Positions 3,974 through 38,300 of a stretch of DNA of 64,000 bases are shown one piece after another (position 1 is the stretch's first letter; the number at the start of each line of letters is the position of its first letter). The stretch is from Eledone cirrhosa. Its lineage: Eukaryota. The stretch spans positions 25,668,001 to 25,732,000 of the forward strand of contig OZ024745.1 of assembly GCA_964016885.1 (NCBI GenBank). The letters run 5' to 3'. Under the pieces are notes generated by a model that was not told the origin of the DNA, did not search any database, and saw nothing but the letters and a program-made list of their open reading frames with translations. The translations under genes and the position numbers were made by a program.

Positions 3974-4255
3974 TATAAGGAAAAAAGATGAAATCGAAAA
4001 TGCAACTGGAGTCTTTTTTTTTTAAATATATTTATTTGTTCCTTTACCGGTTTCGCAGTTCTTGTGCTTTTCAAAAGTAGAATTGAGATGGAGGGTTTGT
4101 GGTTTTTCTCACAGATGTAAGAAAAACCACAAACCCTCCATCTCAATTCTACTTTTGAAAAGCACAAGAACTGCGAAACCGGTAAAGGAACAAATAAATA
4201 TATTTAAAAAAAAAAGACTCCAGTTGTATTTTCGATTTCATCTTTTTTCCTTATA
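3974..4255. repeat. 282-bp near-perfect palindrome made of two inverted copies of a ~140-bp dispersed element
   Basis: Arms TATAAGGAAAAAAGATG...GGTTTTTCT and AGAAAAACC...CATCTTTTTTCCTTATA meet near 4115; single copies at 16140-16275 and 24733-24878. Confidence 0.95.
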
Positions 4256-4389
4256 TATATATATATATATATATATATATATAATATATATATATATAGG
4301 ATATATATATATATATAGGATATATATACATATATATATATCCTATCCCCCCCCCTCTCTCTCTCTCTCTCTATATATATATATATATA

Positions 4390-4469
4390 TAGGATGTCCC
4401 CCCAAAATGTATACATACTTCAACACCATTCTAATAAATATTTGTATACGTTATTTGGGGGACACCCTG
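4390..4469. mobile_element. second copy of the ~80-bp MITE
   Basis: TAGGATGTCCCCCCAAAATG...TTTGGGGGACACCCTG with the same interior CTTCAACA-CATTCTAATAAAT. Confidence 0.8.
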
Positions 4470-4747
4470 TATATATTCTCATTTTCTTTTCTTGTGTAAC
4501 TTTAGTCCGTTACATATACATCGGCTATCGTATAGGAGCTACTATCGACATTTGCTAGACATTAAATCACCAAATTTAGACATAAGGTTGATCAAGATAA
4601 CTCCAAATTAATTAGTCATACTACTTTAGAAAATGTCTGTGTAGTCTAGAAGGCGTTGTTTTAACACAAAAGTCTTGCTTTGACTATATTTGACATCAAC
4701 TACACAGTATTATCATAAGTGATATCTGTTGGCTATCATATGTTCGT

Positions 4748-5030
4748 ACCTGTAACACCTAATGGAATCGTTGTGGCACCGTAGTGTCATACGCTGTTTC
4801 TTAGGCATATTAAACCTGGCTGAGCCCATCTCTCTCCAGGTCTGAACAAATCCGATTTCTTCTAGAGAAGAGGTGAGAAAGAGATATAGAGGAAGAATTG
4901 ACCCCAGTACTGGACTGGTATTTTATTATTGATCTTGACGGGATTTTAACTGGGAGCCTAGAGAGCCGCCAGAACGAATACCGCAAATATTCTATCTAAC
5001 GTTCTAATGAGTCTTCCAATTCGTCACTAC
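4748..5030 (-). mobile_element. SINE A-related element with an alternative 3' tail
   Basis: GTAACACCTAATGGA-TCGT...CCGTAGTGT-ATAC...CAGGTCTGAA is shared with 5758-5998 and joined to the SINE A central and head region. Confidence 0.65.
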
Positions 5031-5757
5031 GACGGCTAGCGTACTATATCAGTTATAGAAATACATACATTATACAGTACTAAAGATGTTGCTAAACGAT
5101 TTCAATCTCGAGTATAATGTCGAAGTCGTTATCACAAAATGACCTGATAAGGAAAAGCGACAGACATCTTACAGTTATTCAACAAAATTTGAAATCATGA
5201 AGCAGAAAACAGATATTTTTGTGAATGTGTTGCTATTATTCCTACTGCAAAGATTTATTGATGCCTCAGTAAAAAGAACACTGGATAGACTAGCAATTGC
5301 GCATAAAGTAATACTCTGCAACGGAAAACTATAAATATGTGCAAAGGTGCATTTCGTGGGTTACACGGAATTAAAGAGGCAAGATTAAAAATAGAAGTTC
5401 TCAATATCAAAAATGATATAGAAGATAAGCAAACATCGCAATCGCCAAATGATTTCCGAAGTAAGAATAACTCGTATTCGTGGGTGCTTCAAAAACTTTT
5501 CTCTGCGAAAGTAATCATTGCAAAGCATAAACAACACCCAGAATCATCTGTTTCCATTGCAACAATGCATAGACAATGAAGGTTACAGAGAATCTAGAAA
5601 CTTGGAGGGTTTGCCATTTGATTTTGTTGCAGTGACATTCTGATGAATCTGCATAATGCAAGGGAATTAGAAATAACCAAACTTGCACGAGGCTTTAGTG
5701 ACTGCTGTTTCTTTCACAGTAACCTCTAACTGTATGTCATCTATTATGTATGCATAT

Positions 5758-34167: not shown

Positions 34168-34360
34168 CAGGGCCGTATTATATATATATATATATATATA
34201 TATATATATACAGAGCATTATAGGACCTCCCCGGGCAAAGCAGAGCACTGGGGCCCCTACCTACACAACCACTCACAGGAATAAAAATACAAATGGGCCC
34301 CCTATTCTCGTGGGGCCCCTGGGCTACTGCCCAGCGTCCCCATGCGTTAAGACGGCCCTG
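34168..34360. mobile_element. GC-rich MITE (hAT-like)
   Basis: TIRs CAGGGCCGTATTA / TAAGACGGCCCTG, flanked by TACATATA and TATATATA. Confidence 0.7.
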
Positions 34361-34918
34361 TATATATATATTTATATATATATATATATATATATATATA
34401 TATATATATATATATATATATATATATATATATATTGTATGGAAGAAATTGTATGGAAGAAATGTTTTCTTTATGAGTCGTAATATATATATTCCTTTCA
34501 ATTTCTATGTTGTTGTAACAGTTTGTATATTGTAGTATACATTGTATTTTAGAATAAATGTATTCAAAACAAAATGTATGTATGTATGTATGTATGTATG
34601 TATGTATGTATGTATGTATGTATGTATGTATGTATGTATGTATGTATGTGGGTATGTATGTATCTACTTGCTTATGGGGTGGTGCCAATATGAATGTTAG
34701 AACTCAATGCAGTCTTGAAAAAAAATGATTTCAACGAGATCATGCGGTGAGAACTATAGTTTCGTATAGTTTTTGCAGACTCACACACACACACACGCGC
34801 ACACGCGCGCACGCACACACACACACACACACACACACACACACACACACACACACATGTATATATACAAATGATTTAAGAACTAATATACATATATATG
34901 TATATATATATATATATA

Positions 34919-35042
34919 CAGGGTGGCCCAAAAGTCGCAATACATAGGACATTATTAAGTTTCCATATTTATTTAATTTGAATGAATTGCTTCTTATAAA
35001 ACATAATTTTTTTTTTAATGTATCGCGATTTGGGCCACCCTG
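34919..35042. mobile_element. 124-bp Tc1/mariner-like MITE
   Basis: TA-CAGGGTGGCCCAAA...TTTGGGCCACCCTG-TA. Confidence 0.88.
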
Positions 35043-35216
35043 TATATATATATATACATATATATATATATATATACACATCGCCAGAGCAGTGCATTAT
35101 AGAAGGCTATATGTTGTCGGAACATTAAATACCAATAATATAAAGAACATTGTAAACTTAGACTATTAGCAGATACATCACTCTTCAATAAAAGTGATGA
35201 GAAGTTAATGAGAAAT

Positions 35217-35398
35217 TAATTGTTTCTACTTGAGGCACAAGGCCAGCAAATACTCAGTGTATTACAGGTACTTTATTTTATCGACCCCGTAAGGGTGAAA
35301 GGCAATGTTAACCTCGGCGGGATTTGAACTCAGATCGTAAAGGGACATAACTATGCTGGAAAGCATGGCGTCCGACCCTCTACTGATACTGCCAATCC
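35217..35398 (-). mobile_element. SINE A with a 10-bp TSD
   Basis: AGAAATTAAT at 35211-35220 and 35399-35408. Confidence 0.9.
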
Positions 35399-38300
35399 AG
35401 AAATTAATGAAACCTTGTAATATGCAGTGGGTGTTCGCAGAGAAAATAATTAATGTAACCCATTTGGAAAGAAACCTGAACAAAATATTCAAATTCTATG
35501 CTGATAAATATGAGACCATATGTTCTGTTTTTGGAAAATCCATCTATCTATCCACCTATCTATCCATTCATATTTCTGTCGACATAACTGTAAGAGACTA
35601 TATCTATTAATATATGCTTGTATGTATACATGTATATATATATATATATATATATATATATATATATATATATATATATATATATATATAAACGCGCGTA
35701 ACAGGTCGCTACACAATAAAAATGCAATAAATGTAAACGAAACTTCGTTTTCTTTAATATATATGTATATATATATATATATATATATATATATTATATA
35801 CACACACATACACACACACATATCTATCTATCTATCTAAAGATATCTATCTATATATATATATATATATATATATATATATATATATGCTATTATAATAA
35901 AGGATATAATATATATCTACGAGTGAATGAGGGAGGGGGTATATTAATGAAATAAGTCTAATGATGTAGAATTTGTATTTGTGTATTTTCGTTCCAGCTT
36001 CAGTAACTGGAAATAAAGTTATGTGTATGATACATATATGTTACAGTCTGCCTATGTGCATTGTTTGTTGATAAACTAGTGCTTACACTAAGTTATGTTC
36101 ACCTCACTATAAATAAATGCTATAAATTTACAGTCTGCAAATTTTGAATATTTTCCATGTTAAATACTTTTCAAAGCCGAACACGTTGGATAGCTGAGTC
36201 AGTATTTAGCCTCCTATTATATTTCCACTCACATCTATGATACAGTATATATAATAAATAATAGAAATCCTGTACATTGCTTGATTGGTATTACACTTTA
36301 TAGGTTCTGGAAGGATGAAGGGCAAAGTTGATCTCGGCGGGATTTTAACTCAAGACATAAAAAACGCCCGTGACTAACTATTGCAAGGCATTTTGTTTGG
36401 TGCTTTAATGATTCCGTCAACTCCCTATGAACAGATTTGTATTGAATTCCCTTCGACGTTTCCATGCTGGCATGGATTGGACTGGACATCTTGAAGCAAA
36501 GTTTTACAGCCGGATGCTCTTTCTGATAACATATATATTATATACACTCACACACTCGCATGCGGTTCTAAAGTCTGCAAATAGAGAGAAACGTGTATAC
36601 ATGCCTACATGTATGCATCACAGTCAAACTTATGGGTATGTGCAAATAGAGGTGTGTATATATATATATATATATATATATATATATATATATATATATA
36701 ATAACTAGAAATTGATTAACATATATATAAACATGAATAATCTTAGAGCTTATTTTCCGGGTGATATGGCGCATGTCTTTCTGACATGACACCCATAATT
36801 TTGATTTAGATTAAATTCATTTAATTTATCGTAATTTTGGATATATATATATATATATATATAAATATATATCCATAGATGTTTGAGTATGCATGTATCT
36901 GTCGGTACATTTATCTAATTTATATTATATCCTATATAGGGACAGTCATACTCCTACATGTTTCTGTGTGATGTATGACAGTATACATGTCTCTATGTAT
37001 GCATATAGAATAAGAAGAGGGTTGAGGGGGCGTTAAGAGAAATATTGCGAGAGATGAGATAATGACAATTGTTATATTGGTTGTGTAATTAATATAGACT
37101 ATAATAGTATTTTAGGAGCTCGCTTGCTCAGCATACGAAAATTGAGTCTCAAGAGTTTTTTTAAAGGATGGCCCTTTTATTTTGAAATATAAGATATAAT
37201 CAATATAGAACTTCGATATATAAACTGTCTTGCATCTAAGCAAATACTCTTCCTAATCTACCAGCACAAACACACTCGCAGACGCATACTTTCTACAATT
37301 GCTTTTATGCAAGGGAGAAAATTATATTTCTAAAAGCGAGGCAATATCATATGTATGCCATTTGTATAAACAGAAAAGCTGCTCTAACAAGCCAACGAGG
37401 AAGTTTTTACGCGGTTGCTTAACCTGTTAGAGATAGTGGTCGAATCTCCATCGAATCACACCTTAAATACTTAAGTAAGGATAATAAGTCAACTCGATTG
37501 GAGTTAAACAACAACAACAACTACTACAATTAGATCAGAAAGTTATATAAGCCACCGATGAAGAAGCTATATGGGGGTGATTCGATTTGCTAGAAAAAGC
37601 AGTCAAATCTCTCAGAAAAATGAAGGGCATATTTGATAATGTGGACTTCAATACACTTTTTGTTTTACAATTTTTTTTTAAAGAGGGAAGTATCCTGGAG
37701 GGAAGTATCCTTAAACCAGAAGTCTGGTTCGAATGTTTACAATAAAGTGAACTCCAGTAAAAGCACTCAAGGGCCCTGGGTGGTGTTAAACTGGGTGATG
37801 TATTAAGTCTACCATCTACCAGTCAAGTAGGCCACAGTAGGATTTGAAATCGGAATGCAAATATCGCAACTCACCTCGTCTGACTCTCTAACAATTCCAG
37901 ACACTCTATCGCCCTTGATTAGTATTTTATTTTATCGACTACGAATGGATGGAAGTCATAGATGACCCCATCGGGATTTGAACTCATTTTGCAAGAAGAT
38001 AGAATAGATAGGCGTATGTCCTACGCTTTACCGACTCTGCCAAGTCACCGCCACCGTCTCCTAAGTTTGTGTATTACATAACTGTCATCAACATTTCCTT
38101 CTTGTCCTTGCCCTGTCTTCTCTTCCCTCTCTTCTTCCCTTCCCTCATATCTCCCTTTATCCCTATCTCTATGCTTATTATATCTTTATCGCCCTTTCTT
38201 TATTTTTCCTGTACTCTCTCTCTCCCTCTCTCTCTCTCTCTCTCTCTCTCTCTAACTTCCGGTTGGTTTACATTTTGGTTTCTTTTCGTTTTCTATCCTA

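What the first reader, a model, noticed from the sequence alone, without database searches (positions are those of the whole stretch)
3974..35760. (TA)n arrays host several unrelated protein-free inserts that each carry a minimal hammerhead ribozyme
Seen: motifs with type I hammerhead topology at 13042-13099(-), 14085-14127(+), 15665-15735(-), 16161-16198(+), 17025-17090(-), 17153-17218(+), 24768-24803(+), 26590-26655(+) and 33185-33294(+), plus partial ones at 30077-30104 and 35690-35705. Most sit in short inserts bounded by (TA)n, and most have a palindromic or near-palindromic stem III (UGAUCA, UGCGCA, CCGG, CUCGAG, UAUGUA). Known: minimal type I hammerheads with palindromic stem III occur in Penelope-like element terminal repeats and non-LTR retrozymes, and can cleave as dimers. 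Inference: several lineages of ribozyme-bearing non-autonomous retroelements accumulate in TA microsatellites in this genome. I saw no recognisable Penelope RT or GIY-YIG ORF in the window.
Basis: partly seen in the sequence, partly recalled or inferred. Interest (0 to 1): 0.85.

Follow-up and report, generated by a model that had tools for sequence, protein, structure and literature searches.

The report
Penelope retrotransposon stubs carrying hammerhead ribozymes
The short inserts in the TA repeats are the terminal repeats of Penelope-like retrotransposons, each with a whole or partial hammerhead-shaped motif; they occur an estimated 100,000 or more times in this genome and are likely dead copies of the short leader of the element's mRNA rather than independent mobile ribozymes.

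Summary
The motifs are real. A strict type I hammerhead descriptor finds 3 in the window (0.01 in shuffles) and 33 in a 782-kb genome-wide sample (0 in 8 shuffles), about 126,000 genome-wide. 87 of 107 insert 3' ends abut (TA)n, against 3.8% background. Four of the nine listed motifs carry core mutations. The 'partial' one at 30077 is complete.

The 'non-autonomous' reading mostly fails. Six of eight families lead to protein-coding Penelope-like elements (PLEs) elsewhere in the genome: two Neptune/Nematis-type (A, D) and four Hydra-type (B, B2, F, H). Only C (2.2 kb) and E (840 nt) traced to non-coding units. HHRs in pLTRs, TA targeting, fold-back pairs and tails are all published PLE traits.

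Not found in print: in A, F and H the 5' ends pile up 29-32 nt behind a TATA-like box, mostly at an initiator-like A. In A the ORF starts 28 nt past the stub's tail. The stubs are therefore likely copies of the mRNA leader, from transcription start to the internal RT start. In H that start lies inside the ribozyme, so most copies hold half a hammerhead. Cleavage and expression are untested.

The parts
3909..4251 (.). Family A fold-back pair (Neptune/Nematis-type PLE terminal repeat); minus arm ends in the long tail, plus arm at the short end next to (TA)n; U3-A8 hammerhead in each arm
   Evidence: arms 97.8% alike; arms span -39..+166 and -43..+104 relative to U3
12986..13183 (-). Family C stub, hammerhead 13042-13099 with AUGAUCAU palindrome; source is a 2,218-nt non-coding unit with terminal redundancy
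   Evidence: (L165 direct repeat 2473-2710 = 4691-4928)
14080..14309 (+). Family D stub, hammerhead 14085-14127 (U3.G8, non-palindromic helix III); a relative 87% alike over the ribozyme follows a CCHH-type GIY-YIG ORF
   Evidence: L171; GIY-YIG E=1.1e-4
14378..14515 (-).
15622..15804 (-). Family B2 stub (Hydra-type), hammerhead 15665-15735 with A15.1>G in this copy
   Evidence: (L174, 94% alike, follows RT and EN)
15977..16116 (.). Family H fold-back stub, 3' half of the hammerhead only
16138..16269 (+). Family A stub, hammerhead 16161-16198 with U4>C
16982..17350 (.). Family B fold-back pair (Hydra-type), intact hammerheads 17025-17090(-) and 17153-17218(+); tail on the plus arm
   Evidence: (L296)
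24733..24874 (+). Family A stub, hammerhead 24768-24803; starts at -40, two bases from the predicted transcription start
26466..26787 (.). B-related fold-back stub, hammerhead 26590-26655 with G12>C
28066..28232 (.). Family F rearranged fold-back stub, first catalytic box cut
29137..29233 (-). Family F stub, first catalytic box cut
30023..30204 (.). Family F fold-back stub (Hydra-type) with a complete hammerhead 30072-30122(+)
   Evidence: L327
33114..33422 (+). Family E stub, hammerhead 33185-33294 with C3>U and A9>U; source is an 843-nt non-coding unit with terminal redundancy
   Evidence: L171
33435..33490 (+). Decayed family F fragment
33499..33640 (-). Second family D stub, decayed hammerhead 33551-33592
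35691..35765 (+). Probable 3' half of a hammerhead (ACGCGCGU palindrome); family not traced

Best explanation
The inserts are terminal-repeat (pLTR) fragments of endonuclease-bearing Penelope-like retrotransposons, each with a whole or partial type I hammerhead motif; they were likely inserted at (TA)n by the elements' own GIY-YIG endonuclease and reverse transcriptase, and most are likely copies of the short mRNA leader. Steps: (1) Shown: longer copies of six families run from an RT and/or GIY-YIG ORF through a 3' UTR into the same hammerhead. In family A the tail runs on into the next unit's ORF, with the ATG 28 nt later. (2) Inferred: a TATA/initiator promoter in the pLTR starts the mRNA at -42 (A), -6 (F) or +43 (H) relative to core position 3. 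(3) Inferred from the anole PLE work: the protein binds near the ORF start, nicks TA-rich DNA, and primes reverse transcription at one of two internal sites (short end, tail end). On a single-unit mRNA it can then copy only 100-210 nt before reaching the 5' end. (4) Inferred: head-to-head pairs form by snap-back of the cDNA or by priming on both target strands, which leaves the tail on one arm only. (5) Shown: the stubs span the predicted cleavage site, so the template was uncut or re-ligated. The ribozyme would act on read-through or tandem transcripts, as a dimer or with protein help, and is not needed for insertion. Full-length copies would need tandem transcripts. C and E are likely non-autonomous units moved in trans by the same machinery.
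For: Parents. A: L062 has RT motifs, a CX4CXXC linker, CCHH, GIY-YIG (PF01541, E=1.4e-5) and the ribozyme 1.3 kb past the stop; also L203/L323 and L169. D: L171. B: L296, with 3' UTR pieces shared with L298. B2: L174, L305, L324. F: L327, where an inverted F arm abuts a truncated RT and a sense ribozyme lies 1.8 kb past the EN, and L326. H: L166, EN C-terminus 1.1 kb from the ribozyme. Tandem junction: 10 of 20 stretches upstream of the A ORF hold a sense pLTR reaching the tail end, and 8 printed junctions run from the tail into the ORF start. Two 3' ends in A, B, C, F and H. Head-to-head arms: A 15 of 24, B 28 of 53, F 36 of 57, H 78 of 119. 5' ends: A, 26 of 50 copies at -43..-35, 21 longer than -60 (part of the set was query-selected); F, 45 of 57 at -10..+9; H, 26 of 32 arms of the even sample at +39..+53, with 3 of 32 keeping the first box. 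TATA-like box 29-32 nt before the modal end in 7 of 7 parent copies examined of A, F and H, initiator match in 4 of 7; background for the box 2.2-4.5%. Stubs mix with long copies on the A tree. Literature: internal RT start, two start sites making the tail, cleavage not needed (PMC11167929); transcript starts within the upstream pLTR (PMC2377424); TA targeting, inverted copies and tails (PMC8557442).
Against: No RNA evidence was obtained for a start site, expression or cleavage. The TATA fit was noticed after the fact. It fails or is unclear for B (ends spread from -95 to -12), B2 (initiator-like only), C, D and E. None of 10 ORF-bearing A copies has its upstream pLTR starting at -43..-35: six are long, the others start at -176, -105, +9 and +10. 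An extra G before the start, as expected from copying the cap, shows only in F (8 of 14 truncated arms), not in A (0 of 11) or clearly in H (6 of 28). The same positions also read as YAG splice acceptors and lie at predicted hairpins. No ORF parent was found for C or E; the one ORF-C junction (L166) is a one-off chimera, 1 of 40 scored matches. The F and H links each rest on one or two broken copies. Family D 3' ends did not abut (TA)n in the even sample (0 of 9).
Confidence: 0.68

Rival explanations
1. Same PLE parents, but the 5' limit is set by reverse transcriptase stopping or snapping back at RNA or cDNA hairpins near the ribozyme (or by a splice acceptor), not by a transcription start.
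For: Hairpins lie at or near the limits in A, B and H. Several junctions show 2-3 nt microhomology. All three limits read YAG. Self-priming at palindromes was proposed for rotifer PLEs (PMC3846280), and an intron ends at helix I in Drosophila virilis Penelope (PMC4209133).
Against: It does not explain a TATA-like box 29-32 nt upstream in three families. No recurring upstream exon sequence appeared before the limits. The 21 long A copies and the ORF-bearing copies pass -42 without stopping.
Confidence: 0.2
2. One reading: the short inserts are self-propagating non-autonomous retroelements (retrozyme-like), each with its own master copies, moving via circular or cleaved RNA.
For: C and E traced only to non-coding units with terminal redundancy. 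Many F copies are near-identical, with the same fold-back centre (a query-selected set). Retrozymes derive from pLTRs (bioRxiv 10.64898/2026.07.22.740005). L181 holds tandem 467-nt ribozyme repeats.
Against: Six families have coding parents. A stubs are not a clade. Window copies are solo or head-to-head, and fold-back RNAs are predicted to form long perfect hairpins that bury the ribozyme (75-98% paired). Most H copies lack the first catalytic box. Stubs from a TATA promoter would lose the TATA box.
Confidence: 0.1
3. The motifs are chance matches in AT-rich repeats or assembly fold-back artefacts.
For: Rfam finds none. Helices are short and AU-rich. For several copies the hammerhead fold is not the lowest-energy one.
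Against: 33 vs 0 in shuffles. 20,078 and 38,537 exact family matches vs 0 reversed. Helix I changes on both sides between F subfamilies. Short-read contigs show TA directly against the same ends. Arms differ from each other and carry a tail on one side only.
Confidence: 0.01

Closest known systems
Minimal type I hammerheads of metazoan PLEs (Cervera and de la Pena 2014, PMC4209133; read parts 1-2 of 4)
   Same: Core, palindromic helix III, unpaired base before helix II, the U3-A8 variant (here A and H), mostly solo copies, opposite-strand pairs 100-700 bp apart.
   Different: Far more copies (about 126,000 strict motifs estimated vs 2,000-9,000 reported there). F and H have a 4-6 bp helix III that could close in one molecule. 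B, B2, C and F lack the G10.1-C11.1 pair.
Hydra and Neptune/Nematis clades of EN+ PLEs (Craig et al. 2021, PMC8557442; passages and section 11 read, supplements not read)
   Same: C-terminal GIY-YIG, linker motifs, canonical ribozyme, (TA)n targeting, inverted truncated copy, tail on one end.
   Different: Tails of 60-130 nt rather than 30-40 nt. Hydra-type families at tens of thousands of copies, where few were reported outside cnidarians. 5' ends are sharply peaked.
Poseidon of Anolis carolinensis in vitro (Frangieh et al. 2024, PMC11167929; read parts 1-3 of 4)
   Same: Two internal RT start sites bounding the tail, AT-rich target, uncut RNA as template.
   Different: There the ORF starts inside the ribozyme and the tail lies in the ORF; in family A the ATG follows the tail. 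That paper does not discuss a fixed 5' limit of short inserts in the parts read.
Non-LTR retrozymes (PMC7229834, passages read; bioRxiv 10.64898/2026.07.22.740005, parts 1-3 of 5 read, supplements not seen)
   Same: Protein-free, type I hammerhead, pLTR-derived; E (843 nt) and the L181 repeats come closest.
   Different: Retrozymes are head-to-tail arrays, mostly of 150-450 nt, expressed as circular RNA; the window inserts are solo or head-to-head, and circular RNA is untested.
Penelope pLTR promoters (Drosophila virilis, PMC2377424; Adineta vaga, PMC3846280; passages read)
   Same: Transcription starts within the pLTR; a putative TATA plus initiator was noted in one rotifer pLTR; solo pLTRs exist.
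   Different: The D. virilis promoter is internal and TATA-less, and rotifer solo pLTRs were put down to recombination or deletion. Here solo stubs start where a TATA promoter would fire.

Membership tests
Type I hammerhead ribozyme | Core CUGANGA (or U3-A8) / GAAA / NUH with three helices in type I order | tested here: met
   met in most members of each family and in 3 strict window copies; broken in 4 of the 9 listed copies
Type I hammerhead ribozyme | Compensatory change in helices | tested here: inconclusive
   (family F, 27 rows): 17 cells changed on both sides, 0 of 500 shuffles as high, but 14 come from one helix I pair in related subfamilies; helices II and III barely vary
Type I hammerhead ribozyme | Self-cleavage 3' of NUH | not testable with these tools
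   Needs an in vitro assay
Minimal PLE hammerhead (dimer type) | Palindromic helix III that pairs between two copies | tested here: met
   homodimers -9 to -12.5 kcal/mol for A, B2, C, E; -4 to -5 for B; only -2 for D; no monomer fold
Minimal PLE hammerhead (dimer type) | G10.1-C11.1 pair at the base of helix II | tested here: not met
   Present in A, D, H; replaced by A-U, U.U or A.C in B, B2, C, E, F. Described as typical, not required
EN+ Penelope-like elements | Single ORF with RT and C-terminal GIY-YIG | tested here: met
   A. B, B2, F: RT motifs and EN (Pfam did not recognise these fragments). D and H: EN end only. Not found for C, E
EN+ Penelope-like elements | Ribozyme-bearing pLTR in partial tandem, inverted truncated copy, tail on one end | tested here: met
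Neptune/Nematis clades (A, D) | CX2-5CXXC linker and CCHH in the endonuclease | tested here: met
   A; D relative. Motif definitions from PMC8557442
Neptune/Nematis clades (A, D) | Placement in an RT tree with reference elements | not tested
   No reference proteins on hand; Neptune vs Nematis is unresolved
Hydra clade (B, B2, F, H) | CxCX5C linker, no CCHH, CxxC and CxH around the conserved E and N | tested here: met
   B and B2 show all; H shows CxxC and CxH only; the F linker is broken in the copy printed
Hydra clade (B, B2, F, H) | RWK and DKT motifs in the N-terminal RT | tested here: inconclusive
   All fetched copies are truncated before this region
Non-LTR retrozymes | Head-to-tail array with a complete ribozyme in two or more units | tested here: not met
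   Window inserts are solo or head-to-head; C and E show terminal redundancy with one complete ribozyme
Non-LTR retrozymes | Expression as small circular RNA | not testable with these tools
   No RNA holder listed

The most novel reading that the evidence does not exclude
Penelope-like elements here pay for internal priming: every single-unit mRNA yields only a copy of its own capped leader. The 10^5 stubs are then a fossil map of pLTR transcription starts, and only tandem transcripts give full-length copies. In family H the promoter sits inside helix II, so the mRNA is born without its first catalytic box and only read-through RNA from an upstream unit can self-cleave. That would give the PLE hammerhead a job: cutting read-through RNA while sparing the mRNA. 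As a by-product, tens of thousands of 100-270-nt near-perfect hairpins seed the genome as double-stranded RNA substrates.
Probability: 0.4. Interest if true: 0.65.

Novelty: new member of a known kind. Interest (0 to 1): 0.45.

Why it matters
The role of the hammerhead in PLEs and the origin of their tandem and inverted structure are open questions (PMC8557442, PMC11167929). This genome offers several young, very abundant families with sharp ends, so the leader-copy model and the 'promoter inside the ribozyme' case can be tested with cap-anchored sequencing and simple cleavage assays. The estimated density, about 42 strict motifs per Mb, is roughly ten times that of the axolotl (up to 120,000 copies, in 28 Gb). 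Rfam misses all of them. The nine families tested cover about 2% of the sampled bases (16,939 of 782,100, including some 3' UTR) and would be misfiled as SINEs or MITEs without the ORF links. The basic finding, ribozymes in PLE ends at TA repeats, is already known biology.

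Tried and rejected
Rfam: no hammerhead hit seen. The repeat finder was swamped by TA.

Family C parent: the Hydra-type ORF joined to C in L166 is a one-off; 39 of 40 scored matches continue into another family with its own ribozyme.

Family H: I first thought it lacked the first catalytic box altogether (searches used a C3-G8 box or the wrong spacing). 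The full motif has U3-A8 and a long helix II. The CUGAWGAG seen at some junctions is probably a junction by-product.

Splicing as the cause of the 5' limit: no recurring upstream exon; not excluded. Cap-derived G: seen in F only. One search had a miscounted loop; its 24 matches are rare variants and were not used.

RNA runs: no RNA holder listed. DNA contigs of two runs of one sample cover the A pair in thousands of short pieces, but none spans it; one other organism gave 5 contigs and another 0.

Pfam found nothing in 11 window ORFs or in 9 of 10 ORF fragments from loci. Earlier scan notes: none.

Literature searches for this case found no report of these families or of start-site-bounded stubs. 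The library lacks most subscription journals. I did not read the supplements of PMC8557442, which list families and ribozymes, or of any other paper. An octopus repeat annotation (PMC13282606, parts 1-2 of 3 read) counts Penelope families without mention of ribozymes in those parts. The host group was not tested; that the repeat landscape resembles an octopod's is recall only.

Full report
OBSERVATION. The window lies on contig C5 of a 3.0-Gb genome and has about twice the average density of TA arrays (4.7 vs 2.1 per kb). Five match their family's usual core and four carry a change at a normally invariant position (15665, 16161, 26590, 33185). The 'partial' motif at 30077 is a whole hammerhead, 30072-30122. 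A strict descriptor (exact core, helix I of 4 or more pairs, helix II of 3 or more, paired or palindromic helix III) gives 3 hits in the window against 0.01 in 100 local shuffles. It gives 33 hits in 79 evenly spaced 9.9-kb stretches against 0 in each of 8 shuffles. That scales to about 126,000 motifs (bootstrap 77,000-180,000); 50 of the 79 stretches come from the four largest contigs, which hold 54% of the genome. Exact whole-genome counts agree in scale: 20,078 arms of family F with an intact core and 38,537 of a 22-base word of family H, both 0 when reversed. 27 of the 33 hits lie within 250 nt upstream of a TA array (background 10.8%). 87 of 107 family 3' ends run straight into (TA)4+ (background 3.8%), but family D did so in 0 of 9. 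Rfam recognises none.

FAMILIES AND PARENTS. Self-comparison sorted the inserts into families A, B, B2, C, D, E, F and H. I searched the genome with A, B, C, D, E and F (600-2,200 candidates each, 40 scored) and walked upstream. Family A leads through a 1.3-kb 3' UTR to a GIY-YIG endonuclease (PF01541, E=1.4e-5) with a CX4CXXC linker and CCHH. An RT with DKG, RPI, FDV, GTAMG and YLDD motifs lies before it. A relative of D follows a second CCHH-type endonuclease. B, B2 and F follow ORFs with a YRDD-type RT and a CxCX5C linker or its remnant, no CCHH, and CxxC and CxH around the conserved E and N. These are the marks of the Hydra clade in PMC8557442. H follows the C-terminal end of such an endonuclease in one locus. 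Clade names rest on motifs, not on a tree. C and E led only to non-coding units of 2,218 and 843 nt whose end runs back into their start. The one ORF joined to C proved a chimera. The window holds no ORF remnant.

ANATOMY. A, B, C, F and H have two 3' ends, a short one at an internal TA-rich site and a tail end 60-130 nt further. More than half of the arms of A, B, C, F and H are in head-to-head pairs, usually with the tail on one arm. Both traits, and TA targeting, are described for PLEs (PMC8557442). In the anole element the two ends are the two internal RT start sites, and ribozyme cleavage is not needed for insertion (PMC11167929). Our stubs span the predicted cut site, so they too were copied from uncut RNA. 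Ten of 20 stretches upstream of the A ORF hold a sense pLTR, and the tail runs on into the ORF with the ATG 28 nt later.

RIBOZYMES. A and H use the U3-A8 core already reported in Schistosoma PLEs (PMC4209133). A, B, B2, C and E have palindromic or near-palindromic helix III that pairs only as a homodimer in silico; D is weak. F and H have a 4-6 bp helix III with a palindromic loop. In F, helix I changes on both sides between subfamilies while loop II and position 7 vary freely; this rests mostly on one pair. Fold-back inserts would transcribe as long hairpins that bury the ribozyme. Activity is untested. Published PLE ribozymes of this type cut poorly alone.

THE 5' LIMIT. Truncation is not random. 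In A, 26 of 50 copies start at -43..-35 relative to core position 3, and 21 run beyond -60 (16 of 24 unselected arms start at -50..-21). In F, 45 of 57 unselected arms start at -10..+9. In H, 26 of 32 arms of the even sample start at +39..+53, inside helix II, and 3 of 32 keep the first box. In all 7 parent copies examined of these three families a TATA-like box lies 29-32 nt before the modal end, and 4 of 7 match an initiator there; background for the box is 2.2-4.5%. With internal priming just before the ORF, an mRNA starting there can yield only a 100-210-nt copy of its leader, which is what the stubs are. Stubs and long copies of A are mixed on a tree (16 changes vs 16.4 shuffled), as expected for by-products of the same sources. 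Against: the fit was post hoc; B, B2, C, D and E do not show it cleanly; none of 10 ORF-bearing A copies starts at -43..-35; a cap-derived G appears only in F; hairpins and YAG sites coincide with the limits. I put the PLE-stub reading near 0.9, and the leader mechanism, given that, near 0.75 for A, F and H.

WHAT IS KNOWN. Solo and opposite-strand minimal hammerheads from truncated PLEs (PMC4209133), TA-targeting Hydra and Neptune clades (PMC8557442), pLTR promoters (PMC2377424, PMC3846280) and pLTR-derived retrozymes (PMC7229834; bioRxiv 10.64898/2026.07.22.740005) are in print. That such ribozymes cleave as dimers is also recalled from Lunse et al. 2017, not read here. Nine searches found neither these families nor start-site-bounded stubs; unread supplements and unheld journals may bear on this.

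VERDICT. Real, non-random and TA-linked; new members of known PLE clades rather than a new kind of element. Interest 0.45.

Noticed in passing
L181:5400-7100 (G000:C1, even sample): A Neptune-type ORF followed by inverted and tandem 467-nt repeats, each with an intact hammerhead: a retrozyme-like array growing from a pLTR.
   Followed up: partly
L206, L233, L238, L241 (family K); L290-L293; L177, L200, L214: Further hammerhead families absent from the window; K gave 6 of the 33 strict hits, and L290-L293 are a young Hydra-type element with its own ribozyme.
   Followed up: partly
L166:4800-8100: One-off chimera: a Hydra-type RT and thumb fused to the non-coding family C unit, endonuclease missing.
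   Followed up: yes
window:3669-3745, 4392-4471, 34195-34361, 34919-35042, 62786-62870: Short elements with terminal inverted repeats, flanked by TA, MITE-like; other tenants of the TA arrays, without a ribozyme.
   Followed up: no
window:1698-1881, 9060-9245, 16772-16978, 19571-19754, 35217-35399 and about 15 more: A dispersed 190-nt SINE-like family, sometimes in inverted pairs (1551-1902, 56088-56708).
   Followed up: no
window:30266-30872, 31834-32291, 60551-61158, 61209-61814: A 606-nt repeat, 96-97% alike, in simple-repeat arrays; type not determined.
   Followed up: no
window:18150-18248: Another TA-bounded insert (family I), 11 hits in the even sample; not checked for a ribozyme or parent.
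   Followed up: partly
window:62487-62773 and 63399-63610; 52312-52733: An element end forming an inverted repeat around a TA array, with a GAAA-palindrome motif that may be another half hammerhead; the 41-nt satellite at 52312 resembles part of it.
   Followed up: no
window:1-508, 8014-8800, 47161-47581, 55231-55609: Tandem arrays of 50 (100% identical), 86, 49 and 15 nt.
   Followed up: no
window:14080-17350 and many fetched loci: Stubs of different families pile up in the same TA arrays, each new insert flanked by fresh TA; 41 of 79 sampled stretches hold at least one.
   Followed up: partly
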